In this document: positions 17,809-60,935 of the stretch, piece by piece | Numbering within the stretch: the first letter of the stretch is position 1 | Layout: every line of letters begins with the position of its first letter | Origin: Candidatus Poribacteria bacterium | Lineage (GTDB): Bacteria; Poribacteria; WGA-4E; PCPOR2b | Reading direction: 5' to 3' | DNA length: 64,000 nucleotides | NCBI GenBank assembly: GCA_965205075.1 | Contig: OZ242036.1 | Coordinates: forward strand, 4,928,800 to 4,992,799 | The notes under the pieces: generated by a model | What the model was told of the DNA's origin: nothing | Databases searched by the model: none | Seen by the model: only the letters and a program-made list of their open reading frames with translations | Made by a program: the position numbers and the translations under genes

Positions 17809-17864
17809 TTCTATTCCGATCAGGACCTACGCAAATTTAGCACGCGGCGCGAGATTTTTTTTAA

Positions 17865-17893: not shown

Positions 17894-18005
17894 TATGAGC
17901 CAGCTGCGTAAATCCTATATGATGAAATCGTTAAACCCAAAGAATATGTGAGCCAAAGGCTTACGCTTAACCGTTAATCTACTTTACATCAAAGGAAACT
18001 AACTG

Positions 18006-45748: not shown

Positions 45749-45860
45749 AACGGGGAGTATCTGTGTAATAGCACTACATCCCCGCACAGTTTTTAGTTAG
45801 AAGAATGTTTTCACGGTCAACATTGTATTAACACCGGTCGTCAGTAAATAGAAAGGTGGC

Positions 45861-46748: not shown

Positions 46749-48848
46749 ATGACTTTCAGGTATCGTCTGGGAGTAGACATCGGGGGGACATTCACCGATG
46801 CAACCCTGATCAACGAAGAAACGGGTGAGATCCGCGTCGGCAAAGTGCCTTCGACACCCCAAGACCCATCACAGGGTTTCATGGAGGCAACCCACCGCAT
46901 ATTACGCGAGGCTGGCGTGTCGCCGGATGAGGTCGGCTATGTCGTTCACGGGACAACGGTAGCAACCAACTCGATCATTGAAGGCAAGGTTGCCCGCACA
47001 GGCTTCATTACAACCGACGGCTTTCGCGATCTGTTAGAGATCCAGCGACAGATTCGACCATCGCTCTACGATTTACACTTTGAAAAGCCGCGTCCTTTGA
47101 CGCCTCGTTACCTATGTTTCGGTGTACCTGAGCGATTGGACGCCCAAGGGAATGTGCTCACGCCGCTTGATGAGTCCGCAGTCAGGAATGCAGCAGCGCA
47201 ACTTCGCCGAGAGGACGTGGAATCAATCGCTGTCTGCTTCCTTCACGCCTACATCAATCCGAGCCATGAGAAACGGACGGGCGAGATTCTACGTGAAATT
47301 CTCCCCGACACGATTATCTCCCTTTCATCAGAGGTCGCACCGGAGTTTCGGGAGTATTTCCGGGCGAGTACGACAGTCATCAACGCTTCCATTAGACCCG
47401 TCGTCGGACGTTATCTCCAGAGCATTGAGGTGCGGCTGCGAGCGGAAGGATTAGCGGCGGAACTGCTTGTGATGCAGAGCAGCGGTGGGGTTTTCACATT
47501 TGAAGCAGCGAGCGAAAAACCGGTCTTCATGGTGGAATCGGGGCCCGCAGCGGGTGTCATTGCTGCGACCTATCTCGGCACGACGCTAGGATGTCCGGAC
47601 GTCATCTCCTTCGACATGGGCGGAACCACAGCGAAGGCGGGACTTATTCAGAACGGCACACCAACGATAACCAAAGACTATGAGGTAGGGACGGCGGCGC
47701 AAACCGGCGTGGGTGCCTCCCGCGGCGCAGGCTATCCCATCCGTACTCCCGTCATCGACCTTGTAGAGATTGGTGCCGGCGGCGGCTCGATCGCTTGGGT
47801 GGACTCCGGTGGGGTGCTGCGAGTCGGACCGCAGAGCGCGGGTGCGGATCCAGGTCCGGTGTGTTATGGAACGGGCGGCACTGAACCGACCATCACCGAT
47901 GCCAATTTGGTGTTGGGACGACTCAACCCCAGCTTTTTCTTAGGCGGTGAGATTGAATTAGACGTTGAGGCAGCGCGTCAGGCGATCCAAGAGAAGTGCG
48001 CGGATCCGTTGAATCTTGACCTTGTGGAAGCCGCTCACGGTATCGTGGAGATTGCCAACGCTGCGATGGTCAATGCCTTACGCCTTGTCTCCGTCCAGCG
48101 CGGTTACGACCCCAGAGACTTCGTACTAACAGCGTTTGGCGGTGCGGGTCCGGTACACGCCAACCGTTTGGCAGCAGAGATTGATGTACCCACCACGATT
48201 ATCCCCATGAGCCCCGGCACAACCTCAGCCATGGGTTTGTTGGTAACAGACCTAAAGCACGACTACTCCACAACCCTCATCCAACACATCGACCAACTGG
48301 ACACAGCGGCGGTGGAGGAGACCTACCGAGAGTTGGAGGCGCAGGGAGGTGCAAGTCTGGAGCGGGAGGGTGTGCGTCCAGAGGACATCAGTTTCCTCCG
48401 GCAGGTAGATACGCGCTACGTCGGACAAAGCTACGAGTTGACAGTGCCGTTACCGGCAGAGCAGCTAGACGCTTCAAAGATTGACCGTGTGCTTGAGCAG
48501 TTTCATATCGAGCATGACCGTGCCTACGGCTATAGCGCGCCCACAGAGCCGGTCGAGTTCGTAAACCTACGACTCACCGCAATCGGCAAAATCGCCAAAC
48601 CCCGCCTACGCGAACTGGAAGCGGACAACACAGACATCGCTGCAGCGCAGAAAGCGGTCCGATCCGTCTACTTTGCTGAAAGTGACGGCTACGTTGAATG
48701 TCCCATCTATGACCGTTATCTTCTGGGTCCCGGCTGCGTCTTGACAGGACCGGCAATCGTTGAGGAGATCGATTCCACCACCGTCATCCACCCCGGCTAC
48801 AGTGCACAGGTTGACAGGTTCGGCAACCTGATCTTGACCCGAATTTAA
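46749..48848 (+). CDS. hydantoinase/oxoprolinase A-family protein (HyuA-like)
   Basis: N-terminal LGVDIGGTFTDA, a second ATPase-fold motif (DMGGTTAK) and 699 aa. No hyuB-like gene follows. Confidence 0.85.
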   Translation: MTFRYRLGVDIGGTFTDATLINEETGEIRVGKVPSTPQDPSQGFMEATHRILREAGVSPDEVGYVVHGTTVATNSIIEGKVARTGFITTDGFRDLLEIQRQIRPSLYDLHFEKPRPLTPRYLCFGVPERLDAQGNVLTPLDESAVRNAAAQLRREDVESIAVCFLHAYINPSHEKRTGEILREILPDTIISLSSEVAPEFREYFRASTTVINASIRPVVGRYLQSIEVRLRAEGLAAELLVMQSSGGVFTFEAASEKPVFMVESGPAAGVIAATYLGTTLGCPDVISFDMGGTTAKAGLIQNGTPTITKDYEVGTAAQTGVGASRGAGYPIRTPVIDLVEIGAGGGSIAWVDSGGVLRVGPQSAGADPGPVCYGTGGTEPTITDANLVLGRLNPSFFLGGEIELDVEAARQAIQEKCADPLNLDLVEAAHGIVEIANAAMVNALRLVSVQRGYDPRDFVLTAFGGAGPVHANRLAAEIDVPTTIIPMSPGTTSAMGLLVTDLKHDYSTTLIQHIDQLDTAAVEETYRELEAQGGASLEREGVRPEDISFLRQVDTRYVGQSYELTVPLPAEQLDASKIDRVLEQFHIEHDRAYGYSAPTEPVEFVNLRLTAIGKIAKPRLRELEADNTDIAAAQKAVRSVYFAESDGYVECPIYDRYLLGPGCVLTGPAIVEEIDSTTVIHPGYSAQVDRFGNLILTRI

Positions 48849-48912
48849 TCCTTGGTGAATTAGAGAAATAAGTAGACATTTACCAACAACTCCGACCTTC
48901 ACGAAGTTGCCA

Positions 48913-48941
48913 AAGTCCCCCTGATAAGGGGGATTTAGGGG
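48913..48941. repeat. dispersed 29-bp palindromic repeat, copy B (inverted)
   Basis: AGTCCCCCTGATAAGGGGGATTTAGGGGG. Confidence 0.8.
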
Positions 48942-49698
48942 GTTGGTTGTGTATCGAAAGTGTATAAGTAATTGAGGGGGGTGCATCATTATTGTCTGAA
49001 TCAGGATTTAAGGATTCTCAGGATAGAAACCGGAACGTGAAACGGGACTATTTTAGGACGGGACAGGGTGCATTTAGCCCCAGCGGGGCGACATGTGCCA
49101 TTTGTCTGAATCGCAGATTGCACGGATGATTGCACCGATTTCATCGGGAGGATTAGCATCTAAGATCGCGCATGGAGGCTAGTTCCGATGTCGTTCCGAG
49201 CATCCTGATGAATCGGGAGAAGCCTATCCCACACGAAAGTGGTTTATGCACACCCCTCAAGTAATTATAGAATTCACCATACTAAAAACTTCTTTAGGAC
49301 TAAATCCCGAACTCCAATAGATCGGGGTTAAGCAAAGCATTTTGTGGTATAATTTATTGGTCTTTCGTAGCGGATTTTAACTGCGTCTACCTGCGTAACA
49401 CCAATTTTGAAAACTGCCAAGATTGGGAACAAAAGTATTAGGGACTTTATAAAAAACTTGAAACTTTCCACCAAGTTCTTTGTGTTACCGATTGAAGCCT
49501 GTAATGCCAGCGATCAGAAAGAAAAAATGGGAAGATGAAAGTGTCTGATAAAATTCATTATCGGACATTATCGGGGTGTTTTGCGGGGGATGTGAAAATA
49601 AAGATCCAGTCATAGCAAGGGTTTTGAGAGTCTCAATAAGCCAAAAATATGTCCGATAACTGTAGCGGGCGTGATTTTGAGAGAAAGGAGAAGGGGTT

Positions 49699-50487
49699 AT
49701 GAACGAATCACCTTTGCCGAGATTGACTGTCAGCAGGGAAGAAGCAAAAGAGAAAATACGAGCACGAATAACGGAGGTACACCGATTAAGAGACGCATCG
49801 TATACTCACGAATACCGGTTGAGAGCATGTGAAAGGTGGTCGGAGTATAACGAGACTCTTTTAGTAAACTTGTTTGGCGGTAGTGCTGAATATAGCAATT
49901 ACAGGAGATTCACGGGGTTCAGAAGCGGAGCTCCCATTTCACCTAACGACTACAGGCGTAGAATAACAGACAGCATTGAGAGCTTGCTGGCGATCTGTGA
50001 ACGCCTTGAACTATACGACGAACCTTTACAACCTACAAACACGACGCAGCATCGTTTCGGCAATGATGTTTTTATCGTGCACGGACGGGATGATGGAGCT
50101 AAGGAGACTGTCGCTAGGTTTGTAGAGCATTTGGGCATAAAACCAATTATACTTCACGAACAAACCAGTAGAGGTGAAACGATTATTGAAAAAATTGAAA
50201 GGTGCTCAGATGATGCGGGGTTTGCTATTGTCTTAATTACACCCGATGATGTCGGAGGCTTAGAAGGTGAAGCAGCCGATGAACGGAATCCTAGACCCCG
50301 ACAAAATGTTGTTTTTGAACTCGGCTATTTTATGGGGAAACTGGGTCGTGAAAGAGTTTGTGCGCTTTTCAAAGGTGAAGTAGAAAATCCCTCAGATATC
50401 GATGGTATAGTCTATATCGACATGGACGCTCCTGGTGCATGGCGGGAGACACTACGCCGAGAAATGAAGGAGATAATCCAATGCTAA
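49699..50487 (+). CDS. defence-associated protein: unknown N-terminal helical domain plus C-terminal PF10137 TIR-like (CAP12-type) nucleotide-binding domain
   Basis: RBS AAGGAG is present. C-terminal VFIVHGRDDG...IIEKIE...FAIVLITPDDVGG...RPRQNVVFELGYFMGKLGRERVCALFKGEVENPSDIDGIVYI matches the bacterial TIR-like domain consensus. Confidence 0.6.
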   Translation: MNESPLPRLTVSREEAKEKIRARITEVHRLRDASYTHEYRLRACERWSEYNETLLVNLFGGSAEYSNYRRFTGFRSGAPISPNDYRRRITDSIESLLAICERLELYDEPLQPTNTTQHRFGNDVFIVHGRDDGAKETVARFVEHLGIKPIILHEQTSRGETIIEKIERCSDDAGFAIVLITPDDVGGLEGEAADERNPRPRQNVVFELGYFMGKLGRERVCALFKGEVENPSDIDGIVYIDMDAPGAWRETLRREMKEIIQC

Positions 50488-51878
50488 CCAAGGCGTTTAT
50501 CGAAGAGCGGAAATTAGCGAGGGATTCCCAATTTTTTACGAAGACCCTCGCACCAACAAATAGCGAGGGGGCTCTCCGGTTTGTTCTCGACAATCTTGGG
50601 AGGTTGCCACCAGATTTTGATCAAGAGCCCCTCTTAAAGCTGCTAAAACACGCACACCCGAATATTCGCCTGCTTGCCGTTAAGAATCTCGGTAAATTCA
50701 AGGATGCCGAGTTGCTTGATGCGATCTCCAAATTCGCGAATAGCGAAGCGAATACTGCCACCCGTCGTGAAGCGGTCTCGACGATTGGACGGATGCGAAC
50801 ACCGAAAGCAATCCCGATCCTTATCCAATTTCTAAAGGACATTGACCCAAAAGTTGTCTTACAAGCGATTCGCGGACTCATCAACTTTAAGATGATCCCC
50901 GAGGTTCAATCTGCACTCGTAGCCTTGGAGAGCCATCCGAATGAATTGATTCAAGATGTTGTAGGGCGGGAACTGACCTCGAAAACTGAATCCCAACAAG
51001 AGAAGCCACTCGCACATCCCCAAAGCTTAGATGCCCTCAAAAACGTCATTGTCCATGCTGATGTCCGAGACGTATTGGGTGCCGTACCTGATGAATCCAT
51101 CCACCTGACCTTCACTTCGCCACCATACTACAATGCCCGCGATTACACACTCTACGAAAGCTACGCGGCATATCTACAATTCCTCGCTGATATTTTTAGA
51201 GAGGTGCACCGTATTACAAAGGAGGGGCGATTTTTTGTCCTCAATACCTCCCCGGTTATCGTTCCACGTATGAGCCGCGCTCACTCCAGTAAGCGATACG
51301 CCATTCCCTTCGACATCCATCCGATGTTGACGCAGATTGGATGGGAGTTCATTGAGGATATTGTCTGGGTAAAGCCGGAACGAACTGCCAAAAACCGGAA
51401 CGGTGGGTTTTTCCAACATCGCAAACCGCTCGGATACAAGGCAAACTCCGTCTCAGAATATGTAATGGTCTACCGTAAGAAAACGGATAAGCTAATTGAT
51501 TGGAATATGCGCCAATATGACGAGGAGACGGTTGAGGGGAGCTTGGTCAAGGGAGACTACGAGAAAACAAACGTGTGGCACATCCATCCTGCAAGCGACA
51601 AGGTCCATCCAGCAATCTTCCCAACCGATTTGGCAACACGGGTTATTCAATTTTACTCCTTCAAAAAGGATATAGTGTTTGACCCGTTTGGAGGCATTGG
51701 AACAGTGGGTGTCGCAGCCCTCATGTTAGAGCGTTTTTTTCTTCTCGCTGAACAGGAAGAGAAATATGTCGAGAAGGCGATGCAGGCTGTTGATGGTTCA
51801 CTGTTTAACACCATCAGTCCCAGATGTTTTAACTTGGCTGAATTCAGAGCGACACTCAACAAAGAAGAAGAACGATGA
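50481..51878 (+). CDS. DNA methyltransferase (beta-class N6A/N4C, SPPY motif) with N-terminal PBS-lyase HEAT-like repeats
   Basis: Motif IV LTFTSPPYYNARDY precedes motif I VFDPFGGIGTVG, the beta-group order. HEAT repeats lie at about residues 60-170 (HPNIRLLAVKNLG...RREAVSTIG...PKVVLQAIRGL). ATG 50481 overlaps the upstream stop (ATGCTAA). Confidence 0.8.
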   Translation: MLTKAFIEERKLARDSQFFTKTLAPTNSEGALRFVLDNLGRLPPDFDQEPLLKLLKHAHPNIRLLAVKNLGKFKDAELLDAISKFANSEANTATRREAVSTIGRMRTPKAIPILIQFLKDIDPKVVLQAIRGLINFKMIPEVQSALVALESHPNELIQDVVGRELTSKTESQQEKPLAHPQSLDALKNVIVHADVRDVLGAVPDESIHLTFTSPPYYNARDYTLYESYAAYLQFLADIFREVHRITKEGRFFVLNTSPVIVPRMSRAHSSKRYAIPFDIHPMLTQIGWEFIEDIVWVKPERTAKNRNGGFFQHRKPLGYKANSVSEYVMVYRKKTDKLIDWNMRQYDEETVEGSLVKGDYEKTNVWHIHPASDKVHPAIFPTDLATRVIQFYSFKKDIVFDPFGGIGTVGVAALMLERFFLLAEQEEKYVEKAMQAVDGSLFNTISPRCFNLAEFRATLNKEEER

Positions 51879-52867
51879 CTATCACCGGTGTTGTAATAAA
51901 GAATATCATACGTAAATTGTTGGCAGGCGAGGATTACCGCGCTGAGATCGTCGCGCTCATTGATGCAGAATTTTTGCAATATGTCATCGAATTTTTTGGT
52001 CGCGTTGTTGATGCAAAGTTGAAAGATAGACCTGTAACAATTGATTGGTACAAAGAAGAATTTCTCAATCCAGAGCTTCAATCGTCGGATATCGCTGTAC
52101 ATTCAGGCTTGAACATGAAAACGATCTCGAATATGTATAACTCCTCACGGAAAGAAGTTGTACTTGAAGCATCTAGAGATCATTATGATGTCTTACTTAA
52201 TGCGATTCAGGATTTGACGGAGCAAAGCGATGTCGATGTCGCCTTGACAATAAAATTTCGGACGGTCAGTGTTGATCTCAATATTAACGAAAGTTTGATT
52301 GTTATTAATACGCTTGCTGTCAAACGCGCCGCGTTGCGAGGTGGATTGTGGAGTACAGCAGGAAAGCAGGTTGAGAAACCGTTGATGACAACCCTTTGTG
52401 CCCTATTCCGTGTTCCACTGAGGTATTTTAATCAATCTGTTCTTCCTATTTCAACAAATGAAGTGGAACGTGAAGCGGATTTCTATCTGGTCGATAACGC
52501 TGGATTGAGGCACCGTTGCGAAGTGAAACTGATGGGCAGAGGGAATCCAGAAAGTGCGGATGCCGTACATGCCCGTAGCAGCCAAGTTTTTGTTGCGGAT
52601 AAACTCTCGGACCTGAATAAAGCACAACTCGACGATTCAGACATCTATTGGGTGGAACTACGAGATGAAAACGGCTACAAACGGTTTGAGCAGGTTTTAA
52701 CGGCGTTATCAATTCCTTGTCAGTCCTTTGAAGGTGATATACAGGCAGCGTTAGATGAAATCTTTCCAGTTATACTTTCCGACGATGTTCAATCTTCATC
52801 GACCCCTGGCGTTATTCTTCAAGAGCGAGATGGTAATGATTCACAGCTGCTCGTGGACTTTGAATAA
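51875..52867 (+). CDS. putative restriction endonuclease (PD-(D/E)xK nuclease) cognate to the upstream methyltransferase
   Basis: ATGA start/stop overlap with the methylase gene. Candidate catalytic motif EADFYLVD-x9-EVK (D-x9-E-x-K). Confidence 0.4.
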   Translation: MTITGVVIKNIIRKLLAGEDYRAEIVALIDAEFLQYVIEFFGRVVDAKLKDRPVTIDWYKEEFLNPELQSSDIAVHSGLNMKTISNMYNSSRKEVVLEASRDHYDVLLNAIQDLTEQSDVDVALTIKFRTVSVDLNINESLIVINTLAVKRAALRGGLWSTAGKQVEKPLMTTLCALFRVPLRYFNQSVLPISTNEVEREADFYLVDNAGLRHRCEVKLMGRGNPESADAVHARSSQVFVADKLSDLNKAQLDDSDIYWVELRDENGYKRFEQVLTALSIPCQSFEGDIQAALDEIFPVILSDDVQSSSTPGVILQERDGNDSQLLVDFE

Positions 52868-53003
52868 AATAAAGTGGACGGGGACGGTAGAGAAGTCGCG
52901 GGCGAGGTTGAATTGATAATTAACGAGGATGGGACTTATGCAATGAAATGTTCACGAGGCAAGAAGCAAAACTTTGTGATTAACTTGTGCGGGAGATGTT
53001 AAA

Positions 53004-53858
53004 ATGCCAGAACCAACAACTACTGTAGGGCTAGCGGCTCTAGTTGCCTATCTAAGCAAAGATGGTGTTGCAAAAATACTCGGTCCAACCGCCGAGTACC
53101 TCGGAGACGAACTCAAAGCGTTTACACAAAAGCGAGTTGAAAAAGTGGGTAAGATATTCTCAAACGCGGAGAAGAAGTTGGGTGATAAACTCGATTTTCC
53201 CGGTCAAGTCCCGCCCAAAGTTCTCAAAACAATAATTAATGAGGGGTCGTATTCTGATGATGCCGTTGCTGTAGAATATTTTGGCGGTGTCTTAGCATCA
53301 TCGAGGACCGAGGTGGGTCGAGATGATAGAGGAGCCCGATTGGCAAAGATGATCGACAACATGTCAGCATACCAACTACGATCCCACTATCTTATCTATT
53401 CCACCATATCAGAACTATTTTCTAATAGCGGAAATAGCTTTGACACGTATGGAAACGGGGGAAAAATGCAGCTATTCATGTCTTATCAAGATTATGCTAA
53501 CGCTATGGAATTTACACAACAAGAATGGGCTAATCATCAGATATTAAGCCATATCTTTCATGGACTCAGTACAGATGGACTCATACAAGATAGTTCGACA
53601 TTCGGAAGCCAAGAGGTCCTTGAGACAAATTTTGTCGGGGTTCCTAGCGATGGGATTATATGCGCTCCTACCACACTCGGGGTGGAATTGTTTCTGTGGG
53701 CTTTTGGGCATGGCGATAAAGAACTTAACTTCTTGCTCACAGACGATTTTTCTTCAGAGATTGAAGGAATCCCCAAATCGGTTCCCAACGCTGTACCGAT
53801 TCAAAGGAAAAATTTCCAGGTTATTGGTTTCACGCCGGAAGACGGAAGTAAAGGTTAA
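53004..53858 (+). CDS. Abi-alpha (DUF4393) abortive-infection-like protein
   Basis: N-terminal VAKILGPTAEYLGDELKAFTQKRVEKVGKIF matches the conserved Abi-alpha N-terminal helix motif. Confidence 0.5.
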   Translation: MPEPTTTVGLAALVAYLSKDGVAKILGPTAEYLGDELKAFTQKRVEKVGKIFSNAEKKLGDKLDFPGQVPPKVLKTIINEGSYSDDAVAVEYFGGVLASSRTEVGRDDRGARLAKMIDNMSAYQLRSHYLIYSTISELFSNSGNSFDTYGNGGKMQLFMSYQDYANAMEFTQQEWANHQILSHIFHGLSTDGLIQDSSTFGSQEVLETNFVGVPSDGIICAPTTLGVELFLWAFGHGDKELNFLLTDDFSSEIEGIPKSVPNAVPIQRKNFQVIGFTPEDGSKG

Positions 53859-54201
53859 TTATGCGGTGCGGATTTCAACTTTGAAATAGCTTTTTATGAC
53901 AGGAGAAGCAAGTGTTAGAAACGACGCCATTGATACCGGACTTAATGCCAGAAAGCACAGTGACCGATAAAGGCTTTCAAAGTGTCCTAGAAGTTTCTCG
54001 AACCCCACATCGGATTATTGAGGGGTTGCCGGCGAGGTTGAACCAGTTAAAGAAGGAATCTGATAATATTTGATCGGAATATAAAATTTTCTAAAACATT
54101 ACGGCAGGCTTTTGTTATTGATGAGCGCATAAAGTGGACCCCTTGTCGAGGCCAAAATACTGGAAAAATAAGTAAGATAATTGAGAGTTACCGACACTGA
54201 T

Positions 54202-54411
54202 TTAGCCGAGATAGACCTCAGCCGGTGTAGCACAATTGAGACTCTGATGAGGTCGTTTGTGATTATAGAACCGGATATAATGAGTTAATCCATCGAACAG
54301 CCCTTGTGCGGTTGGGTACAGTTTCTGGTAAACATCTTCATATTTGACCGACCGCCAAAATCGCTCAATGTAAATGTTGTCAATGGCTCGACCCACGCTG
54401 TCCATACTCAT
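54202..54411 (-). pseudogene. IS3-family transposase (integrase-core C-terminus) remnant
   Basis: DNIYIERFWRSVKYE...YNHKRPHQSLNCATPAEVY is the conserved end of the rve domain of IS3 OrfB. Only 69 codons are intact. Confidence 0.7.
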
Positions 54412-54624
54412 AGCAATACCAGCCGCTTCAACCTCTACAAGAGTGTTCGTTCAACATAGAAAAATTGGTTGACAAAGTTAATGAGAGGTTTATCAGAGAG
54501 GCAAACGAGGTGTTACGTTTTAGGGAAGATATTTAGAGAATCAACGATTCCTGTTGTGCGGGTGGCTACATGCGACGCAAAAATCTGATGGCTATACGAT
54601 CTACACATAAGATGGAGGACTAAA

Positions 54625-55275
54625 ATGTTGAGAGTTGTTTTTCTGATAATGATTGCGATAACGTTTCTTTCGTGCGACTATCTAACCGATGACACTGAGA
54701 CTGAAGCTGATACATTCCCCGTTGGTCCGACACTTGATTGCAGCAAGCTGTTACAAGATCGTGGAAATTGGGAGCTACTAGCAACGCTGAAGCGTGATGT
54801 GAGACAAGATTTCTGGCATGAGTTCTATTTGGAGCCGAACACAGAAGCGTTAATCCTACAAACTCTCCTTGATGGCAAAGAGTTTTTGTTTCTGATAGAA
54901 CACCCCGATAAGAGCTTCTCTCGCCCTGTCCAGTTCTACTTCGCCCAACCGGAGGGCTTGGCCACTTATACGGATGCAAAGGGCTTCACACGCGCGGATC
55001 ATGTCGATCTTTATTACCCGTCCCCTCCGACGTGGTACACGCATTGGGGACCTGAAACAAACGCCATTGGTGGACAGATAAGACGTGAGCAGTCTGGCTT
55101 CGTGGCTAATTTTTTTGCTGGCTTTCCCGGTGCGAAGTTTCAACACGAGGACAATAGGGATAAAGCTTTTGTCGGTGGTTCTGTTGAGTTCCGTGCAACT
55201 CGTGAGGCAGGGATTGATACGGCTTACAAACCGCACATTAAACAGGGCTTCGTGCTAAAGATATTTGCGCGTTGA
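54625..55275 (+). CDS. hypothetical lipoprotein
   Basis: Signal peptide with lipobox LSC; 216 aa with no motif. Confidence 0.4.
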   Translation: MLRVVFLIMIAITFLSCDYLTDDTETEADTFPVGPTLDCSKLLQDRGNWELLATLKRDVRQDFWHEFYLEPNTEALILQTLLDGKEFLFLIEHPDKSFSRPVQFYFAQPEGLATYTDAKGFTRADHVDLYYPSPPTWYTHWGPETNAIGGQIRREQSGFVANFFAGFPGAKFQHEDNRDKAFVGGSVEFRATREAGIDTAYKPHIKQGFVLKIFAR

Positions 55276-55447
55276 CCAATGGATAGTCACTTGAGCAGCT
55301 TCTACCGAACAGGACGGTGAACAACCGCAAGGCACAATCTTTCCAGTCGGTTTGTGTGACCAAGAACTCCAGCCCTTGTCGAGGGGCATAACCGAGTTAT
55401 TTTGTTACATTATAAGGAAGTTGCCATTATTCAAAAAAGGACTGAAA

Positions 55448-55696
55448 ATGAAGCCTACGAAACTGATAATCAATCGACAGAAACCGGCAGCGAATTACAA
55501 GTATCGTGGGAAGTTGCCGGAGGAGCCGACGATTTCTATCCATCGGGGGGGGGGTGAGATAGATTGTGCTTACGCGGTCAAGTTGTCGGGCGATTGGATC
55601 TTACAACAGAACTATGATGTGAGTCCGTGCGGAGGGGCACATATCTGGTTAGAAGAATCCCTGTGCCCAAGTCAAACAAATGTACTGGAAGGATAA
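55448..55696 (+). CDS. hypothetical small protein
   Basis: ATG inside track ORF 55352..55696; about 83 aa, basic N-terminus and Cys/His-containing C-terminus. Confidence 0.25.
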   Translation: MKPTKLIINRQKPAANYKYRGKLPEEPTISIHRGGGEIDCAYAVKLSGDWILQQNYDVSPCGGAHIWLEESLCPSQTNVLEG

Positions 55697-55842
55697 ATGG
55701 AAGCCTTGATTTGTTTGTCTGTTTGTCGTGATGTCATCCATTTGGACATACTACACGACCAAGAATCGGGGACGGCGAAACCAGAATGATATAGAAATAC
55801 TAAAAGCCTACATCTACACACTCAAAAAGGACGTGCTTAATC

Positions 55843-57234
55843 ATGCAAGTTTATAGATTCAGAACAATGGATAATCTATTAGGAGAACACCAAGAGCTAA
55901 AAAAGCAGGAAATTTATTTCGCCAGCCCTGAACAACTGAATGACCCTATGGAAGGTCTCCGAGACATTTTCTGGAGAGGGGATAAAATTGTCTGGGAGAA
56001 TTTTTTTAAGCATTACGCTTTTTGTCTGTATACAATCCATTTACACTTTCTCGTAGCTGGTCATTCTATACAATTAAATGCGAATAATATCCCAATTCTG
56101 GGGAGATGGGATGAACTGCCCTCCCCAGCACAAAGGTTGTTTAATGAGGTTTGGCAGAGGTTTCTCGATCTGCCTGAAATGCCAGAGTTTATCGAAGCGC
56201 TAGAGGACACAAATAGGAAAATAAGAGACAGAGAACTCGGGCTATACCTCGGACTTATCCATTCTGCCTTGTTCTGCGAAATAGAGGAAATATGCTTTGC
56301 AAATGGGCTCATGGCCCAACCCACAACACGCCGTCCACCTGAGCCCCCTGTTGGAGAAAGATTAGCATCTACTCTTAAAGCAATGGCACAGATTGAAGAC
56401 GACGAAAAGAAAGTTGACGATCTGTTTCAAACTTTTGATTCTGTGAAGTACGCAGGGAAGCTTGAGTTGCTATCGAACAATGTGATTCTCACAGGAATAT
56501 CAGGGGGAAATTTCCTGCTAGTGCATTTTGATTTTCCCAGTGTATATTTGAAGGAGATTGAGAAGCTGCTTTGGTGGGACTGGCGCGCCGCCTGTTTTAC
56601 GGAGAATTACCATAACTCAGCCGTATGGAGTACCTATGGAGACAATCACAAAGGGGCATGCTTGATTTTTGAATCCACACAAATAGATGGGGCACGTCAA
56701 TACCGCGCAGTAAGTGGGTTACATAAGGTTGACTATGGACCTAAGTTGAACGAAGTTGATTTCTTTAGGTCTATTGGCAGAGCAACAGTGGGGCAGCTGA
56801 AAGAACTGTGGTACACCGATGCAGAGGGCAATTTTTCTGAATACGGAGACCATATACCGCGTGATGGAGAGAGAGAGAATGATGATACAGTTTGTTGGCG
56901 AAAAAGTTATTGGGATAACTTTTACCGTGACATTACATCTAAAACCAAGGATTGGGAATATGAACAGGAATGGCGTCTAATCCTAGAGGAAAGATGGTTG
57001 GATGAGGGAGACCCCCCCAAACTAATCTACGACTTCAATTCGTTGAAGGGAATTATTTTTGGAATTCGGGCATCCGACGAAGAGATATTAAAAGCTGTCA
57101 AAATCATTCAAGAAAAGTGCGAGGAACATGAGCGGACTGATTTTAAATTTTATAAAGCATACTACTCCCCAAAGACCGGGGAGGTTCGCAAGAATGAGAT
57201 ACGGTTGCCGAGAGCATTACAAAACGTCCGATAA
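55843..57234 (+). CDS. DUF2971-family protein (defence-island associated)
   Basis: Family signatures VYRFRT...IYFASPEQLNDPMEG, SAVWSTYGDNHKGACLIFE and EQEWRLILE. Confidence 0.6.
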   Translation: MQVYRFRTMDNLLGEHQELKKQEIYFASPEQLNDPMEGLRDIFWRGDKIVWENFFKHYAFCLYTIHLHFLVAGHSIQLNANNIPILGRWDELPSPAQRLFNEVWQRFLDLPEMPEFIEALEDTNRKIRDRELGLYLGLIHSALFCEIEEICFANGLMAQPTTRRPPEPPVGERLASTLKAMAQIEDDEKKVDDLFQTFDSVKYAGKLELLSNNVILTGISGGNFLLVHFDFPSVYLKEIEKLLWWDWRAACFTENYHNSAVWSTYGDNHKGACLIFESTQIDGARQYRAVSGLHKVDYGPKLNEVDFFRSIGRATVGQLKELWYTDAEGNFSEYGDHIPRDGERENDDTVCWRKSYWDNFYRDITSKTKDWEYEQEWRLILEERWLDEGDPPKLIYDFNSLKGIIFGIRASDEEILKAVKIIQEKCEEHERTDFKFYKAYYSPKTGEVRKNEIRLPRALQNVR

Positions 57235-57405
57235 CCCGAATGATTGGACATTCTAGGCGTTAGGTTCCTTGCTCCGGTAAAAGGTAGGCTAAAAGAACCT
57301 CGCAATCCATTTGCTAATTCTCCCTGTCAGGGAAAGGCGAGGTGGCGGGAGTTGGTTCAGGAGTACACTATTCTGCCGATCAAAACGTAGCCTAGGAGAC
57401 TCCCT

Positions 57406-58689
57406 TTGAGCAAAACAACAGCCAATAGCAGCGAATCCATTGGATACCGCCAACTGATTCGCGGCAACCGCAATTTTCGCCTGCTTTGGCTTGGACAGAT
57501 TATCAGTCTCCTAGGGGATTGGTTCAACTTTGTCGCTTCCGCTTCACTCATCGCAATACTCACCCAGTCCGGGTTCGCTGTCGGCAGCCTCTTCGTCGTC
57601 CGTATGCTCGCCCCATTCTTCATCAGCCCCATCGCTGGCGTGGTCGCTGACCGCTATAACCGCAAATATACCCTCATCATAACTGACTTGGCGCGTGTCA
57701 TCGTTGCATTCGGCTTCCTTTTGGTTCGGACCGCAGACCATGTCTGGCTGCTTTACGTCCTGACCGCCCTCCAACTTGGGATCGGCGGTTTCTTCTTTCC
57801 CACGCGAAATGCGATTTTGCCCGACGTTGTTTCATCACAGGAGCTCGGTGCTGCCAACGCCTTGGGATCCGCGACGTGGTCGGTTATGCTCGCTTTGGGT
57901 GCCGCCATCGGTGGAATTGTGTCCGGCGCATGGGGCATCTACCCCGCCTTTGTCATTGACGGCTTGACCTTTCTCCTCTCAGCCCTGTTCATCGCCCAGA
58001 TTAAACTTGATGTGGAGCCAGGGCTCGCTGGGTCGGATAAAACCATGGGGGGTGCCTTCAAAGAGTACGTTGACGGTTTGCGTTACCTCGGCAGGCACAC
58101 CGATACATTGGTCGTTGCGCTGCATAAGGCTGCGAGTGCGCTGGTGATGGGTGCTGGATCTCAGGTGGCAATGGTCGCCATCGCCGAAGATATCTTTACA
58201 ATCGGAGAGGGTGGGGGTATCAGCCTAGGTCTCATGCTTGGGATGGGCGGCGTTGGGACAGGTGTAGGTCCAATCGTCGCCCGTCGTTTCACCGGAGATC
58301 GGGATCGTCCGTTGCGGAACGCTATCATTTTGGGCTATCTGATGGGGGCAGTGGGGCTCGCCGTCGTCGCGCCGATGGCTCACTTCGGTTGGGTGCTGTT
58401 GGGTGTCACCCTCCGTGGAATTGGAGGGGGAATTATCTGGGTGTTTTCGACACAGCTGCTACTGTATCTCGCTCCCAATACGGTTCGGGGGCGGGTCTTC
58501 GCCACCGATTTTGCCCTTTTCACGCTGATGAGCGCGGTCGGTTCTGCGGTTGCCGGTGGCGCACTCGACGCTTCACTGAGCATCAATGCAATTTTCTGGT
58601 GGATGGCGGGTTTGACGGTGATTCCAGCGGTTTTGTGGGCAATATGGCTAGGCGAAAAAAAAAGTGTTGACAACGCTAGGCTGATGTGA
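57406..58689 (+). CDS. MFS transporter
   Basis: 12-TM topology with MFS motifs (GQIISLLGDWFNF, VADRYNRK). Confidence 0.85.
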   Translation: MSKTTANSSESIGYRQLIRGNRNFRLLWLGQIISLLGDWFNFVASASLIAILTQSGFAVGSLFVVRMLAPFFISPIAGVVADRYNRKYTLIITDLARVIVAFGFLLVRTADHVWLLYVLTALQLGIGGFFFPTRNAILPDVVSSQELGAANALGSATWSVMLALGAAIGGIVSGAWGIYPAFVIDGLTFLLSALFIAQIKLDVEPGLAGSDKTMGGAFKEYVDGLRYLGRHTDTLVVALHKAASALVMGAGSQVAMVAIAEDIFTIGEGGGISLGLMLGMGGVGTGVGPIVARRFTGDRDRPLRNAIILGYLMGAVGLAVVAPMAHFGWVLLGVTLRGIGGGIIWVFSTQLLLYLAPNTVRGRVFATDFALFTLMSAVGSAVAGGALDASLSINAIFWWMAGLTVIPAVLWAIWLGEKKSVDNARLM

Positions 58690-58877
58690 AACAATAGAGA
58701 ATTGGGGCTGCTAGGCAAAGCCTAACAGCCCCAGTGGGGACTCCGAGTTAGCGGCTCGAAGCCCCCTGAAGCAAAACGAGATACGCGCTCGAATCGCTTC
58801 GTGATTGACAGGTGAACCAACACCTGACAATCTTTCTATAGTATAACCCTTTATGCCAATCGTTTCGATCTAAAACA

Positions 58878-58932
58878 GAGGGGGCTGCGCGATTCGGGGA
58901 TTTCCGACGCTGCAGCCCTTTTTTGTTTTAGG
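58878..58932 (+). terminator. probable rho-independent terminator
   Basis: GGGCTGCGCG...CGCTGCAGCCC stem followed by TTTTTTGTTTT. Confidence 0.4.
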
Positions 58933-59327
58933 TCGTTTCGATGGCAACACAAAGGTGTTGGGCATTGTTGATTTGTGCATCACCATCAGATGCTAAAGGG
59001 TGCAAAAGTTCATAGCTGGGGTGGGAGCTAGGGAGAATCCGGCGGGGCAATCAGATATGACAGCTGGCGATTTAGCCGGAGCCGAAACAGTGACCGCGTT
59101 AGCCTTCAGCTAGCCACCCTGATGCTAGCGATCTTGGGATGGAATGGTATAGGCGATCCCTTATAACGTCGGCAGTTCCTCTAAGTTGACAGTGAGGGGG
59201 AATAGGTATTACCTTGAAAGCATTTCGTCCATACCCAAAGAAGTATAAAATTGGCATGACTCGTGTGCAGCGGGTTTTCTCCGAATCGTATTCTTAGTCA
59301 TGTTTCTCGCAAGCTACGGAGGATTGG

Positions 59328-59612
59328 ATGAGCGACGAAAAAAATGACAACCCCTTGGGTTGCAGGCAAACGTGGGGGTTGATTAGTGCGGAGATGCTGA
59401 AAGCTCTCTTGGACAATCGTTTCCTGAGTGTGCCATCAGCGGTCTTTTTGTATCTCAGATTGAACGACGATGAGCATCTGAATTATAGAGAGGTTGCGGG
59501 TTGCCTCGGATTTCATGAAGCGAGTGTGTATCGAGCTGTCAAAGAACTTGCGGATGCGGGTCTCATCAAACGGAACAGACGCGGGGACTTGAGTGCTCAC
59601 ATCGTTGAATAA
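59328..59612 (+). CDS. small winged-helix DNA-binding protein
   Basis: 94 aa; C-terminal wHTH-like segment (NYREVAGCLGFHEASVYRAVKELADAGLIKRN). Confidence 0.4.
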   Translation: MSDEKNDNPLGCRQTWGLISAEMLKALLDNRFLSVPSAVFLYLRLNDDEHLNYREVAGCLGFHEASVYRAVKELADAGLIKRNRRGDLSAHIVE

Positions 59613-59654
59613 CACTTTGAATAGTGGACCTTAGAATTAATGAGACACGCCAAA

Positions 59655-59830
59655 CCGGTGCGGTTGGAAACCGCACCTACTGTTCTCCCATTTGGTAGGC
59701 GCTGTTTCTAACTGCGCCCGTTCAACCCACGCGCCTATGTGGTCCGGTTGGAAACCGCACCTACTGTTCTCCCATTTGGTAGGCGCTGTTTCTAACTGCG
59801 CCCGTTCAACCCACGCGCCTAATGCCGTAA
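59655..59830. repeat. two tandem copies of an 84-bp hairpin-rich unit
   Basis: GGTTGGAAACCGCACCTACTGTTCTCCCATTTGGTAGGCGCTGTTTCTAACTGCGCCCGTTCAACCCACGCGCCT occurs at 59662 and 59746, preceded by the 35-nt motif at 59623-59657. It generates the artefactual minus-strand ORF 59637..59849. Confidence 0.8.
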
Positions 59831-60010
59831 CCTGTGTAACTTTTCCCATTTTCGTGTTACCTTTGTTACCTTTTTTGCTAAAAAAGCCCAGAGCAGCCTA
59901 TTTTTCCTGTTTTTATCCAAGTTGCTAGATAGCCGTTGTCAAGCGAGTCGCAATTCGGAGGGGGCACCCCTACTTGGTTTATCAACTAGCAACTTGCGTT
60001 AAGATAGGTT

Positions 60011-60847: not shown

Positions 60848-60935
60848 CCTGTAGTTCGGCGATTCATCGCCGTCGGATACCGTTTCCAACGCCCGATGAA
60901 TCGGGCAACTACAATATGAGATGCGTAGTCCTGTA
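60848..60935. repeat. REP-like hairpin cluster, second copy
   Basis: GTAGTTCGGCGATTCATCGCCGTCGG...CGCCCGATGAATCGGGCAACTACAAT. Confidence 0.6.

What the first reader, a model, noticed from the sequence alone, without database searches (positions are those of the whole stretch)
49699..57234. Defence island bounded by a repeat-rich non-coding stretch and IS debris
Within 7.5 kb there are the TIR-like/MTase/REase operon, an Abi-alpha (DUF4393) gene, an IS3 transposase remnant (54202-54411, minus strand), two orphan hypothetical genes and a DUF2971 gene. The island sits between a hydantoinase gene and an MFS transporter. This is the typical mosaic of a defence island, and the unannotated ORFs 54625-55275 and 55448-55696 could be additional defence components.
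Basis: partly seen in the sequence, partly recalled or inferred. Interest (0 to 1): 0.6.

Follow-up and report, generated by a model that had tools for sequence, protein, structure and literature searches.

The report
Site-bounded defence island in Poribacteria
This 8.5-kb stretch is a real, swappable anti-phage gene island in a sponge-symbiont (Poribacteria) genome, and its cargo sits between two copies of a 32-base palindrome that marks where gene cassettes are exchanged between genomes.

Summary
Between a hydantoinase gene (hyuA-like) and an MFS transporter gene lie a CAP12/Pycsar-type TIR gene, a HEAT-N6/N4 methyltransferase, a CfrBI-like restriction enzyme, a distant Abi-alpha-like gene, an IS3 remnant, two small conserved genes and a DUF2971 gene.

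The true island is 48853-57383. In 16 related Candidatus Poribacteria genomes the flanks are conserved to the base. Two genomes have an empty site of about 20 bp. The others carry 1.4-9.6 kb of different cargo, mostly restriction-modification and other defence genes. GC content and codon usage are atypical.

New here: the cargo is bracketed by the only two copies in the 64-kb window of a 13-6-13 palindrome, AAA-YRTCCGATAA-N6-TTATCGGAYA-TTT. Related variable DNA holds 35 more copies, and they sit at homology breakpoints. In one case, segments 99.98% identical adjoin unrelated DNA 2-5 nt from the site. The architecture matches dif/Xer sites, and circular-named 20-25-kb contigs carry these sites together with Xer-like integrases. 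I infer a cassette-exchange system like the Acinetobacter dif modules. An operator function is the main rival.

The TIR gene is repeatedly followed by different restriction-modification systems. That is suggestive but not statistically compelling.

The parts
46749..48848 (+). hyuA-like hydantoinase/oxoprolinase A. This is the conserved left flank of the hotspot.
   Evidence: Pfam Hydantoinase_A 8e-103. 93-96% amino-acid identity across full-length matches in the close Poribacteria loci. DNA homology ends at 48850-48852 in most of these loci; a few also share the repeat DNA beyond it.
48853..49279 (.). Patch of dispersed short repeats (MITE/REP-like). The 121-bp unit 48853-48973 has a G/C hairpin core. 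Terminal 18-nt inverted repeats lie at 48853-48870 and 49262-49279.
   Evidence: Copies in both orientations occur in L001, L004, L006, L033, L050, L058 and L064, and at window 17863-17894. Inverted repeat I10. Fold z-score -2.5. The patch is absent in L007 and L074, where 49280 follows hyuA directly.
49280..49538 (.). Non-coding 'left arm' shared by several other alleles of the hotspot.
   Evidence: Aligns at 80-88% to L005, L007, L050, L064 and L074.
49539..49570 (.). Left 13-6-13 palindromic site: AAGTGTCTGATAA-aattca-TTATCGGACATTA.
   Evidence: PWM (position weight matrix) score 37.7. The best non-site score in the window is 3.9, and the maximum in shuffled sequence is 18.7. The left edge of the TIR cassette in L168, L169, L170, L172 and L084 falls at 49532-49547.
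49571..49698 (+). Portable leader. It contains the invariant blocks GTCTCAATAAG and ATGTCCGATAACTGTAG (a half-site, 49649-49665) and a Shine-Dalgarno sequence.
   Evidence: Nine-sequence alignment A5. The blocks are invariant upstream of TIR genes whose proteins share as little as 54% identity with the window's, and upstream of an unrelated HSDR_N-like gene in L005 and L050. Parts of the leader also precede a NucC-like gene in L003 and a 96-aa ORF in L009.
49699..50487 (+). 262-aa protein with an N-terminal helical domain and a CAP12/Pycsar-type TIR domain (PADLOC candidate PDC-S35).
   Evidence: PF10137 5.5e-42. PDC-S35 7.8e-70 over residues 20-259. A PDB profile search hits Cap12 at 1.4e-10 and PycTIR at 7e-4. 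More than 7,800 homologues.
50481..51878 (+). Type II DNA methyltransferase with an N-terminal HEAT-repeat domain. The ORF opens at 50439, but the likely start is ATG 50481.
   Evidence: N6_N4_Mtase 1.3e-37 and HEAT_2 1.8e-18. MTase_II 8.6e-81. Shine-Dalgarno AAGGAG at 50467-72, and the ATG overlaps the TIR stop codon. The 465-aa orthologue in L003 begins at the equivalent ATG.
51875..52867 (+). CfrBI-like type II restriction endonuclease. Its start overlaps the MTase stop by 4 nt.
   Evidence: RE_CfrBI 8e-25. REase_II 2e-96 over 1-287. Present in 9 of 16 hotspot alleles.
53004..53858 (+). 284-aa protein from a large unnamed family, distantly Abi-alpha-like.
   Evidence: No Pfam, PADLOC or NCBIfam hit of its own. 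29 of 107 family representatives hit PF14337, best 1.1e-6. 1,884 hits in one search and 1,440 cluster representatives in the other. AF2 pLDDT 91.5, with no PDB or viral fold match.
54130..54411 (-). IS3-family remnant: the last 69 codons of the transposase plus the IS end.
   Evidence: NF033516 4.3e-18, model positions 304-368 of 369. rve_3 2.2e-14. The IS end matches L006 13650-13770. L079 keeps a different piece, 54303-54601.
54625..55275 (+). 216-aa lipoprotein with an invariant lipobox cysteine (C17). Function unknown.
   Evidence: 11 homologues, none annotated. Alignment A2 has 80 invariant columns including C17. It lies next to Xer-like integrases in L081, L084 and L086, and next to a primase in L082/L083. 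The AF2 model is poor, pLDDT 61.
55448..55696 (+). 82-codon ORF containing a G10 tract at 55545-55554.
   Evidence: 91.7% nucleotide identity to L079 and L080, where the tract is G6 and the frame is broken. Both halves stay conserved at the amino-acid level. No family hit.
55843..57234 (+). 463-aa DUF2971 protein (PADLOC candidate PDC-S31). Its last three codons and its stop codon lie inside the right site.
   Evidence: PF11185 5.9e-7, 31.2 bits against a cut-off of 22. PDC-S31 2e-23. Sequence read.
57222..57253 (.). Right 13-6-13 palindromic site: AAACGTCCGATAA-cccgaa-TGATTGGACATTC.
   Evidence: PWM score 32.4. Six alleles with unrelated cargo become homologous exactly at this site (alignment A6).
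57254..57383 (.). Non-coding 'right arm'. It is present with the site in L002, L004, L033, L058 and L079 and absent from the empty alleles.
   Evidence: Alignment A6.
57406..58689 (+). MFS transporter. This is the conserved right flank of the hotspot.
   Evidence: MFS_1 4.4e-37. 86-94% amino-acid identity in relatives. Homology resumes at 57384.

Best explanation
The region is a horizontally exchanged defence-gene island. It occupies a conserved chromosomal hotspot between hyuA and an MFS gene in a group of Candidatus Poribacteria (sponge-symbiont) genomes.

Its cargo (49571-57221) is one module with these parts:
- A portable leader.
- A TIR / HEAT-MTase / CfrBI-REase operon with overlapping stop and start codons. 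The R-M pair restricts unmethylated DNA. The TIR protein is a predicted NAD+-degrading abortive-infection effector.
- A distant Abi-alpha-like gene.
- A decayed IS3 copy.
- A lipoprotein gene and an 82-codon ORF, the first of which travels with integrase-bearing elements in other contigs.
- A DUF2971 gene.

The module is bracketed by two copies of a 32-nt 13-6-13 palindrome. I infer that these are core sites of a Xer-like tyrosine recombinase supplied in trans. On this view, cassettes move between chromosomal hotspots and 20-25-kb integrase-bearing circular elements by recombination at the sites, as in Acinetobacter dif modules.

Shown: the gene identities, the hotspot polymorphism, the atypical composition, the restriction of the sites to variable DNA, and their coincidence with homology breakpoints.

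Inferred: the recombinase, the direction and mechanism of exchange, and any anti-phage activity.
For: Hotspot:
- Flanks are conserved in 16 genomes. Two sites are empty (L008, L010). Cargo of 1.4-9.6 kb differs between genomes.
- Cargo elsewhere includes MvaI/BcnI and C5 R-M systems, an HNH-fused MTase, a ThsB-like TIR-TPR protein, a PD-T4-4/AriA/GajA-like ATPase, a NucC-like nuclease, DUF559, PLD and T5orf172 proteins, and IS elements.
- Composition is atypical.

Sites:
- There are exactly two in the 64-kb window, scoring 37.7 and 32.4, with the next best at 3.9.
- By mismatch count, 43 hits fall in about 0.55 Mb of Poribacteria-type loci against 1 in 1.56 Mb of other loci. None lies in the roughly 180 kb of core flank.
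- L168 and L170 are 99.98% identical over 5.4 kb, and L168 and L169 are 99.25% identical over 7 kb. In both cases identity starts 2-5 nt before the site, and the upstream DNA is unrelated.
- Six hotspot alleles converge exactly at the right site.
- The single site in L033 is a hybrid of the window's left and right sites.
- The 5-kb TIR-REase-MTase-GmrSD island in L172 and a single-gene cassette in L227 are each flanked by two sites.
- 20 of 358 homology breakpoints in variable DNA lie within 12 nt of a site. The null expectation is 2.9 +/- 1.7, with a maximum of 11 in 2,000 trials.
- Spacer classes recur in unrelated contexts; CCCGAA occurs 5 times.
- The architecture matches dif/pdif sites: 11-6-11, with a conserved inner palindrome and a variable centre (PMC6449649).
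- The integrases in L081, L084 and L086 are most similar to XerA, XerD and XerC (1e-17 to 1e-12).
Against: - There is no recombinase gene in the island.
- No binding or recombination has been tested.
- The arms are symmetrical, unlike the XerC/XerD half-sites.
- The left and right sites have different spacers (aattca and cccgaa), which would hinder direct excision.
- Not every module junction has a site. Examples are the right end of the TIR-RM module shared by L172 and L084, and alleles L001, L003, L013 and L064.
- A conserved element at the 5' edge of a conserved leader will coincide with homology edges whatever its function.
- In L005 and L050 the R-M module is flanked by a 129-138-bp duplication of the hyuA 3' end. 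That points to a second, homology-based route of insertion.
- The circularity of the L084 and L086 contigs is read only from their names (the '_c' suffix).
- The breakpoint counts are not fully independent, because homologous junctions are counted once in each locus.
Confidence: 0.6

Rival explanations
1. The palindromes are operators for a dimeric transcription factor that controls island genes. Cassette exchange happens by ordinary homologous recombination, using the conserved core flanks and the conserved leaders as portable homology. The sites mark junctions only because they are the first conserved element of each leader.
For: - The site lies 64-148 nt upstream of the next gene in most cases.
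- A third, invariant half-site and a conserved block sit about 45 nt upstream of the TIR and HSDR_N-like start codons, as expected of a promoter with an operator.
- Perfectly symmetrical arms with a fixed 6-nt gap suit a homodimeric HTH protein.
- L005 and L050 show homology-driven insertion with a duplicated hyuA 3' end.
Against: - No regulator gene travels with the sites.
- The right site sits at the 3' end of the cargo and supplies the DUF2971 stop codon.
- In L172 a site follows GmrSD at the junction with housekeeping genes.
- Identical spacers (CCCGAA) recur with different flanks, which an operator does not require.
- 99.98%-identical modules abut unrelated DNA within 2-5 nt of the site, where the only homology available is the roughly 30-nt site itself.
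Confidence: 0.25
2. The palindromes are REP/MITE-like selfish hairpin elements that accumulate in non-essential variable DNA. They play no part in moving or regulating the cargo.
For: - The adjacent stretch 48853-49279 is built from dispersed hairpin-containing repeats of exactly this kind.
- The 10-bp stem with a 6-nt loop would fold as single-stranded DNA or RNA.
Against: - None was found in core intergenic DNA: about 55 kb of the window outside the island and about 180 kb of locus flanks.
- They are strongly enriched at homology breakpoints.
- Only the arms are conserved, while the spacer varies in recurring classes.
- No Y1/HUH (RAYT, IS200/IS605) transposase was seen among the Pfam hits.
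Confidence: 0.1
3. This adds to the main explanation and could hold together with it. The TIR protein and the R-M system form one composite system. The TIR effector is co-transcribed with the R-M genes and acts as a second line of defence, for example triggered when restriction fails or is inhibited, as PrrC is with EcoprrI.
For: - Close TIR relatives (54-95% identity) are followed on the same strand, at -7 to +64 nt, by different R-M types:
  - HEAT-MTase + CfrBI (window; L168-170).
  - BanI/DpnII-like REase + MTase (L172, L084).
  - Type III Mod + Res after two tandem TIR genes (L228).
  - An EcoRI-like methylase 1.5 kb downstream (L171).
  - An MTase remnant (L007).

- No site or leader separates the TIR gene from the R-M genes.
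- The TIR part (93%) and the R-M part (79%) have diverged differently from L168, yet the linkage persists.
Against: - Among 53 loci with more distant TIR relatives (36-60% identity), 123 neighbouring proteins show no MTase or REase enrichment.
- R-M genes make up roughly 30% of the cargo in these islands. Three immediate adjacencies in about six independent lineages is therefore not significant (my estimate, P about 0.26).
- L227 has no annotated R-M gene next to its TIR gene.
- L001-L005 carry the same R-M system without a TIR gene.
- PADLOC treats PDC-S35 as a single-gene candidate.
Confidence: 0.3

Closest known systems
Core defence hotspots: P. aeruginosa cDHS (PMC10250203) and the Listeria 'immigration control region' for R-M systems (PMC10059834)
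   Same: A fixed position between conserved core genes. It is occupied by different defence systems in different genomes, includes empty alleles, and is rich in R-M systems.
   Different: Here the host is an uncultivated sponge-symbiont phylum. The cargo is delimited by a specific palindromic site and a portable leader rather than by core-gene homology alone. No tRNA, tmRNA or integrase gene lies at the hotspot.
Acinetobacter dif (pdif) modules and Xer-dependent elements (PMC6449649, PMC13141974, PMC12907356)
   Same: Discrete gene modules are flanked by short sites with two inverted arms, a highly conserved inner palindrome (ATAA...TTAT) and a variable 6-nt centre. Modules are shuffled between replicons, and no recombinase gene lies inside the module.
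   Different: The arms are 13 nt and essentially symmetrical, with no distinct XerC and XerD halves. The sequence is unrelated to the Acinetobacter sites. The cargo is defence genes and repeat-protein genes rather than resistance genes. The location is chromosomal hotspots plus integrase-bearing circles. Dependence on a Xer-type enzyme is untested.
Integron gene cassettes
   Same: L169 shows an array-like arrangement, with five sites each preceding a small cassette. The cassettes are single genes or small operons, and the cargo is highly variable.
   Different: There is no IntI, attI or Pc. The site is 32 nt, not an attC with R''/R' boxes. The site lies 5' of the gene and comes with its own leader.
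CBASS Cap12 and Pycsar PycTIR effectors
   Same: The TIR domain belongs to the same Pfam family (PF10137). The closest solved structures are Cap12 (1.4e-10) and PycTIR.
   Different: No cyclase gene is nearby. The NCBIfam Cap12 models score 39.8 bits against a cut-off of 450. The N-terminal domain is different. The full-length match is to PADLOC candidate PDC-S35.
CfrBI-type type II R-M systems
   Same: The REase matches PF09516 and a PADLOC REase_II model over its full length. It is paired with, and overlaps, an N6/N4-family MTase.
   Different: The MTase carries an N-terminal HEAT-repeat domain of about 190 aa. Four relatives keep the REase next to only a 3' stub of this MTase.

Membership tests
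Defence island at a chromosomal hotspot | Conserved core genes on both sides in related genomes | tested here: met
   hyuA and the MFS gene are found in 16 Poribacteria loci, and the flank homology ends and resumes at the same bases.
Defence island at a chromosomal hotspot | Presence/absence and content polymorphism, including empty sites | tested here: met
   L008 and L010 have a gap of about 20 bp. The others carry 1.4-9.6 kb of different cargo.
Defence island at a chromosomal hotspot | Cargo enriched in recognised defence genes | tested here: met
   Window: type II R-M, PDC-S35 and PDC-S31. Other alleles: several R-M types, ThsB-like TIR-TPR, PD-T4-4/AriA-like ATPase, NucC-like nuclease and DUF559. 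Non-defence cargo also occurs (BCCT transporter, LRR protein).
Defence island at a chromosomal hotspot | Composition differs from the core genome | tested here: met
   GC 0.4465 against 0.494 +/- 0.017. Codon-usage distance lies beyond all 500 null subsets.
Defence island at a chromosomal hotspot | Protection against phage or foreign DNA | not testable with these tools
   Needs expression and challenge experiments.
Type II restriction-modification system | Full-length MTase and REase, adjacent and on the same strand | tested here: met
   N6_N4_Mtase aligned over model positions 1-220 of 221. REase_II aligned over 1-295 of 311. 4-nt overlap between the two genes.
Type II restriction-modification system | Matching recognition specificity and enzymatic activity | not testable with these tools
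   Would need methylome data or biochemistry.
Abi-alpha (Pfam PF14337) | The protein itself matches the family model | tested here: not met
   No hit at E<=0.5.
Abi-alpha (Pfam PF14337) | Family-level (transitive) homology | tested here: inconclusive
   29 of 107 representatives match, best 1.1e-6. There is no solved or viral structure to compare with.
CBASS / Pycsar effector (Cap12, PycTIR) | TIR domain of family PF10137 | tested here: met
   5.5e-42. The PDB profile search hits Cap12 and PycTIR.
CBASS / Pycsar effector (Cap12, PycTIR) | Adjacent nucleotide cyclase, and a score above the equivalog cut-off | tested here: not met
   No cyclase in the island or next to close relatives. NCBIfam Cap12 scores 39.8 bits against a cut-off of 450.
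PADLOC candidate PDC-S35 / PDC-S31 | Full-length match to the candidate's model | tested here: met
   PDC-S35 7.8e-70 over residues 20-259. PDC-S31 2e-23 in three stretches. No paper naming PDC-S35 was found in the library.
dif/Xer-type module (pdif-like) | Site made of two inverted arms, with a conserved inner palindrome and a variable 6-nt centre | tested here: met
   The 32 distinct sites give AAA-YRTCCGATAA-N6-TTATCGGAYA-TTT. The description of pdif sites is in PMC6449649.
dif/Xer-type module (pdif-like) | Modules bounded by sites, with exchange breakpoints at the sites | tested here: met
   Window, L172 and L227 are bounded on both sides. Breakpoint evidence.
dif/Xer-type module (pdif-like) | Distinct XerC and XerD half-sites, and resemblance to the host's chromosomal dif | tested here: inconclusive
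   The arms are symmetrical. The host dif site is unknown and the whole genome could not be searched.
dif/Xer-type module (pdif-like) | Recombination by Xer or a Xer-like recombinase | not testable with these tools
   The only support is the co-occurrence of sites with Xer-like integrases on L081, L084 and L086.
Integron | IntI integrase, attI and attC sites with R''/R' boxes | tested here: not met
   No integrase in the island. On reading the site consensus, it lacks RYYYAAC/GTTRRRY.
IS3 family insertion sequence | Complete transposase with both ends | tested here: not met
   Only model positions 304-368 of 369 and one end remain.

The most novel reading that the evidence does not exclude
Sponge-symbiont Poribacteria have a dedicated cassette-exchange system, comparable to integrons or dif modules. 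A 32-nt symmetrical 13-6-13 site, often joined to a portable promoter-bearing leader, delimits cassettes that encode defence genes and eukaryote-like repeat proteins. Xer-like recombinases carried on 20-25-kb circular elements move these cassettes between episomes and several chromosomal hotspots. Within this system the CAP12-type TIR gene is a standing partner of interchangeable R-M systems.
Probability: 0.35. Interest if true: 0.8.

Novelty: new variant of a known kind. Interest (0 to 1): 0.6.

Why it matters
Sponge symbionts are known to be unusually rich in restriction-modification and other defence genes (PMC5649159, PMC5099237). How these uncultivated bacteria acquire and reshuffle those genes is not known.

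A short, recognisable site that marks cassette boundaries would give three things:
- A way to find variable cargo in Poribacteria metagenomes, including unannotated defence candidates. Examples are the 284-aa Abi-alpha-like family (more than 1,400 cluster representatives, confident fold, no solved relative), the 275-aa partner of the CfrBI-like enzyme, and the C3/C4 gene pair.
- A second natural example, outside Acinetobacter, of module exchange at dif-like sites, here with defence cargo.
- A testable substrate-enzyme pair: the site plus the L084-type integrase.

The recurrent TIR + R-M arrangement is a concrete candidate for layered defence.

Tried and rejected
- **Rfam and tRNA scans of the whole window.** Nothing found. 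The hotspot is therefore not a tRNA or tmRNA integration site.
- **Promoter and terminator consensus scans.** Results at or below the shuffle expectation.
- **Tandem-repeat and simple repeat searches inside the island.** Only chance-level short matches. The meaningful repeats emerged only by comparison with other genomes.
- **Exact scan of IMG/VR for TCCGATAA-N6-TTATCGGA.** 53 single hits, about what chance gives. No multi-site contigs.
- **Structure of the lipoprotein.** pLDDT 61, too poor to search with.
- **General TIR / R-M association.** Not supported in distant TIR relatives.
- **The 82-codon ORF as a conserved partner of the lipoprotein gene.** Rejected. The 82-aa and 86-aa neighbours in L082 and L081 are unrelated.
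- **The 275-aa protein after the REase in L004, L079 and L168 as a paralogue of the 284-aa protein.** Rejected, hhalign probability 0.4%.
- **The hyuA 3' end (ACCCGAATT, shared with the cccgaa site) as the attB crossover point.** Considered and set aside. The actual junction lies about 10 nt further right.
- **RNA folding of the leader and the right arm.** Not informative, z-scores -2.5 and 0.1.

Full report
**What is in the sequence.**
Profile searches identify them as follows.
- 49699-50487 encodes a 262-aa protein with a CAP12/Pycsar-type TIR domain (PF10137, 5.5e-42). It matches PADLOC candidate PDC-S35 over its full length (7.8e-70).
- 50439-51878 encodes an N6/N4 DNA methyltransferase (MTase) with an N-terminal HEAT-repeat domain.
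- 51875-52867 encodes a CfrBI-like restriction endonuclease (REase) (PF09516, 8e-25; PADLOC REase_II, 2e-96).
- 54202-54411 on the minus strand is the last 65 residues of an IS3 transposase.
- 55843-57234 encodes a DUF2971 protein (PADLOC PDC-S31, 2e-23).
- The flanking genes are a hydantoinase A and an MFS transporter.

The MTase most likely starts at ATG 50481. An AAGGAG lies at 50467-72, and the orthologues are 462-465 aa. This start overlaps the TIR stop codon (ATGCTAA). The REase start overlaps the MTase stop by 4 nt. The three genes therefore read as one translationally coupled operon.

**The 'Abi-alpha' gene.**
ORF 53004-53858 has no hit of its own in Pfam, even at E<=0.5, nor in PADLOC or NCBIfam. 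It belongs to a large unnamed family, with 1,884 hits in one search and 1,440 cluster representatives in the other. When 107 representatives were scanned one by one, 29 hit PF14337 Abi_alpha, best 1.1e-6. The label is therefore a distant family-level link, not membership. The AlphaFold model is confident (pLDDT 91.5). It has no significant match among solved structures or viral predicted structures.

**The two 'orphan' ORFs.**
ORF 54625-55275 belongs to a family of 11 proteins with an invariant lipobox cysteine and 80 invariant columns. It is a real gene encoding a lipoprotein. Elsewhere it lies next to Xer-like tyrosine recombinase genes on contigs of 16-25 kb. Those contigs also carry primase or HNH genes and defence cargo: Thoeris ThsA/ThsB, GmrSD, a DUF559 nuclease, and a TIR + R-M triad.

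The second ORF is best read from ATG 55448 (82 codons). It is 91.7% identical in L079 and L080, but there a G6 tract replaces the window's G10 tract (55545-55554) and breaks the frame. Both halves stay conserved at the protein level. Neither ORF matches any defence model.

**Synteny.**
A search of one genome per species with the hydantoinase placed the window in Candidatus Poribacteria. In 16 close loci, DNA homology to the window ends at 48850-48852 in most, 2-4 nt after the hyuA stop. It resumes at 57384-57389 in most, about 20 nt before the MFS start. L008 and L010 have about 20 bp between these two points, so they are empty sites. The other alleles hold 1.4-9.6 kb.

Cargo is shared only in pieces. 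The CfrBI-like REase is present in 9 alleles, the HEAT-MTase in 5, the TIR gene in 2 and the 284-aa gene in 2.

Other alleles carry the following:
- MvaI/BcnI and C5-MTase/HNH R-M systems.
- An MTase-HNH fusion.
- A ThsB-like TIR-TPR protein.
- A PD-T4-4/AriA/GajA-like ATPase.
- A NucC-like nuclease.
- DUF559, PLD and T5orf172 proteins.
- A DDE transposase and a complete IS3.
- A BCCT transporter and an LRR protein, which are not defence genes.

Contig L079 is a further allele of the same hotspot. It has an FRG-TPR gene in place of DUF2971, and it retains a different fragment of the IS.

**Composition.**
Island GC is 0.4465. No 8.5-kb window elsewhere in the 64 kb falls below 0.463 (mean 0.494, sd 0.017). 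The codon-usage distance to 35 core genes (0.657) exceeds all 500 size-matched null subsets.

**The non-coding left end.**
Stretch 48853-49279 is a patchwork of short dispersed repeats. A 121-bp unit has a strong G/C hairpin. The repeats recur in both orientations inside and outside the hotspot in related genomes, and once elsewhere in the window. The stretch is absent in L007 and L074, where 49280 directly follows hyuA.

**The bounding sites (the main new result).**
Upstream of the TIR gene, three copies of TGTCYGATAA lie within 118 nt, against 0.27 expected in the whole window. Two of them form a palindrome.

A scan for the 10-6-10 palindrome found 43 hits in about 0.55 Mb of Poribacteria-type loci, including a few false positives. 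It found 1 hit in 1.56 Mb of other loci. The 32 distinct sites give the consensus AAA-YRTCCGATAA-N6-TTATCGGAYA-TTT (13-6-13). The arms are nearly invariant and the spacer is variable.

With a weight matrix (PWM) built from these sites, the window has exactly two: 49539-49570 (score 37.7) and 57222-57253 (score 32.4). The next best score is 3.9, and the maximum in shuffled sequence is 18.7. Together the two sites bracket the whole cargo. The right site supplies the last three codons and the stop codon of the DUF2971 gene. No site lies in the core flanks of any related locus.

**The sites coincide with exchange junctions.**
- The TIR-MTase-REase-275aa segment is 99.98% identical between L168 and L170 over 5.4 kb, and 99.25% identical between L168 and L169 over 7 kb. 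Identity starts 2-5 nt before the site, and the DNA upstream is unrelated.
- Six hotspot alleles with unrelated cargo become alignable exactly at the right site. They then share a right arm of about 130 nt that the empty alleles lack.
- The single site in L033 combines the left flank, left half and spacer (AATTCA) of the window's left site with the right half and flank of the window's right site.
- In L172 a 5-kb TIR-REase-MTase-GmrSD island between housekeeping genes is flanked by two sites. In L227 a single 168-aa gene is flanked by two sites. In L169 five sites each precede a small cassette.
- Over 260 kb of variable DNA, 20 of 358 homology breakpoints lie within 12 nt of a site. The expectation is 2.9 +/- 1.7, with a maximum of 11 in 2,000 randomisations. 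These counts are not fully independent.
- Spacer classes recur with different flanks (CCCGAA five times, AATTCA three times).

**Interpretation of the sites.**
The layout is two inverted arms with a highly conserved inner ATAA/TTAT palindrome and a variable 6-nt centre. That is the layout of dif and plasmid pdif sites, which bound the mobile 'dif modules' of Acinetobacter (PMC6449649).

The 307-328-aa integrases on L081, L084 and L086 score best against the XerA, XerD and XerC models (1e-17 to 1e-12). These scores are far below the models' cut-offs. The same contigs carry sites. Two of them have names ending in '_c' and higher coverage tags, which I read as circular. That reading rests on the names only.

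My inference is a cassette-exchange system driven by a Xer-like recombinase supplied in trans.

The main rival is an operator function. Its support is as follows:
- Most sites lie 64-148 nt upstream of a gene.
- An invariant half-site (ATGTCCGATAACTGTAG) and the block GTCTCAATAAG lie about 45 nt upstream of both the TIR genes and an unrelated HSDR_N-like gene.
- In L005 and L050 the R-M module is flanked by a 129-138-bp duplication of the hyuA 3' end. This shows that homology-driven insertion also occurs.

The two functions are not mutually exclusive.

**TIR and R-M.**
Relatives of the TIR protein at 54-95% identity are followed closely on the same strand by R-M genes of different kinds:
- HEAT-MTase + CfrBI (window; L168-170).
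- BanI/DpnII-like REase + MTase (L172, L084).
- Type III Mod + Res after two tandem TIR genes (L228).
- A split EcoRI-like methylase 1.5 kb downstream (L171).
- An MTase stub (L007).

L227 has none annotated.

In 53 loci with more distant relatives, 123 neighbouring proteins showed no MTase or REase enrichment. R-M genes are about 30% of the cargo in these islands, so the adjacency alone is not statistically compelling. I keep a 'TIR as second layer or guard of R-M' model as a hypothesis at about 0.3.

The protein is not a CBASS or Pycsar effector. No cyclase gene is nearby, and the Cap12 equivalog models score 39.8 bits against a cut-off of 450.

**Verdict.**
The island and its hotspot are real, and of a well-known kind. 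The gene calls are mostly right. The interest lies in the palindromic sites and the portable leader that delimit cassettes across Poribacteria-type DNA. I found no description of these in the searched literature.

Noticed in passing
window 45755-46484 (gene 45861-46736): There is a second presence/absence polymorphism just upstream of hyuA. The 291-aa ORF has no Pfam hit. It is complete in L004, L033 and L074, but reduced to remnants of 59-204 aa, or absent, in most other relatives.
   Followed up: partly
window 58658-59993: The stretch between the MFS gene and the next conserved gene (60011-60721, - strand) is also variable. Most relatives replace these 1.3 kb with a few hundred bases, and only L003 shares parts of it.
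   Followed up: no
window 60851-60916: This is another short dispersed repeat (about 66 bp). Copies lie inside the hotspot cargo of L001 (12427-12492), L003 (13471-13566) and L033 (15536-15604; 20467-20530).
   Followed up: no
window 48913-48944 and 17863-17894: The hairpin core of the 121-bp dispersed repeat (CCCCCTGATAAGGGGG...) has an exact 32-nt inverted copy in the core part of the window.
   Followed up: partly
window 55545-55554: A G10 homopolymer lies inside the 82-codon ORF. L079 and L080 have G6 and a broken frame. This could be phase variation, a pseudogene or an assembly error.
   Followed up: partly
window 50481-51060 (MTase residues about 1-190): A HEAT/PBS-lyase-type repeat domain is fused to the N terminus of a type II MTase. 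It is conserved in the orthologues of L001-L005 and L168-170. Its role is unknown.
   Followed up: no
L004 13467-14530, L033 12911-13951, L050 13678-14744, L058 15709-16822: Four relatives keep a full-length CfrBI-like REase preceded only by the last 50-70 nt of the HEAT-MTase gene. The cognate MTase must be elsewhere, or else the enzyme is inactive.
   Followed up: partly
L005 15252-15380 and L050 14743-14880: A 129-138-bp duplicate of the hyuA 3' end lies inside the hotspot, just after the R-M module. This is the signature of insertion by a single crossover in hyuA.
   Followed up: partly
L004 14782-15609, L079 1413-2246, L168 9476-10303: A conserved 275-277-aa protein (87-94% identity) with no family hit follows the CfrBI-like REase in five contigs. 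It is missing from the window. It may be a third component of that R-M module.
   Followed up: partly
L003 12142-13390, L013, L050, L064 (and L033 in part): A recurrent gene pair (about 117 aa plus 223-300 aa, with overlapping ORFs) occurs in the hotspot of four to five genomes. It has no Pfam, NCBIfam or PADLOC hit. It is a candidate two-gene system.
   Followed up: partly
L169 340-1350, L171 3559-5418, L079 4735-6198, L001 16637-17353: Cassettes next to the palindromic sites, or in the hotspot, also encode LRR and FRG-TPR repeat proteins. These are the 'eukaryote-like' protein classes typical of sponge symbionts, so the cargo is not only defence genes.
   Followed up: partly
window 24422-24431: A single exact half-site TGTCCGATAA lies in the core region, with no partner arm. 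It is probably chance.
   Followed up: no
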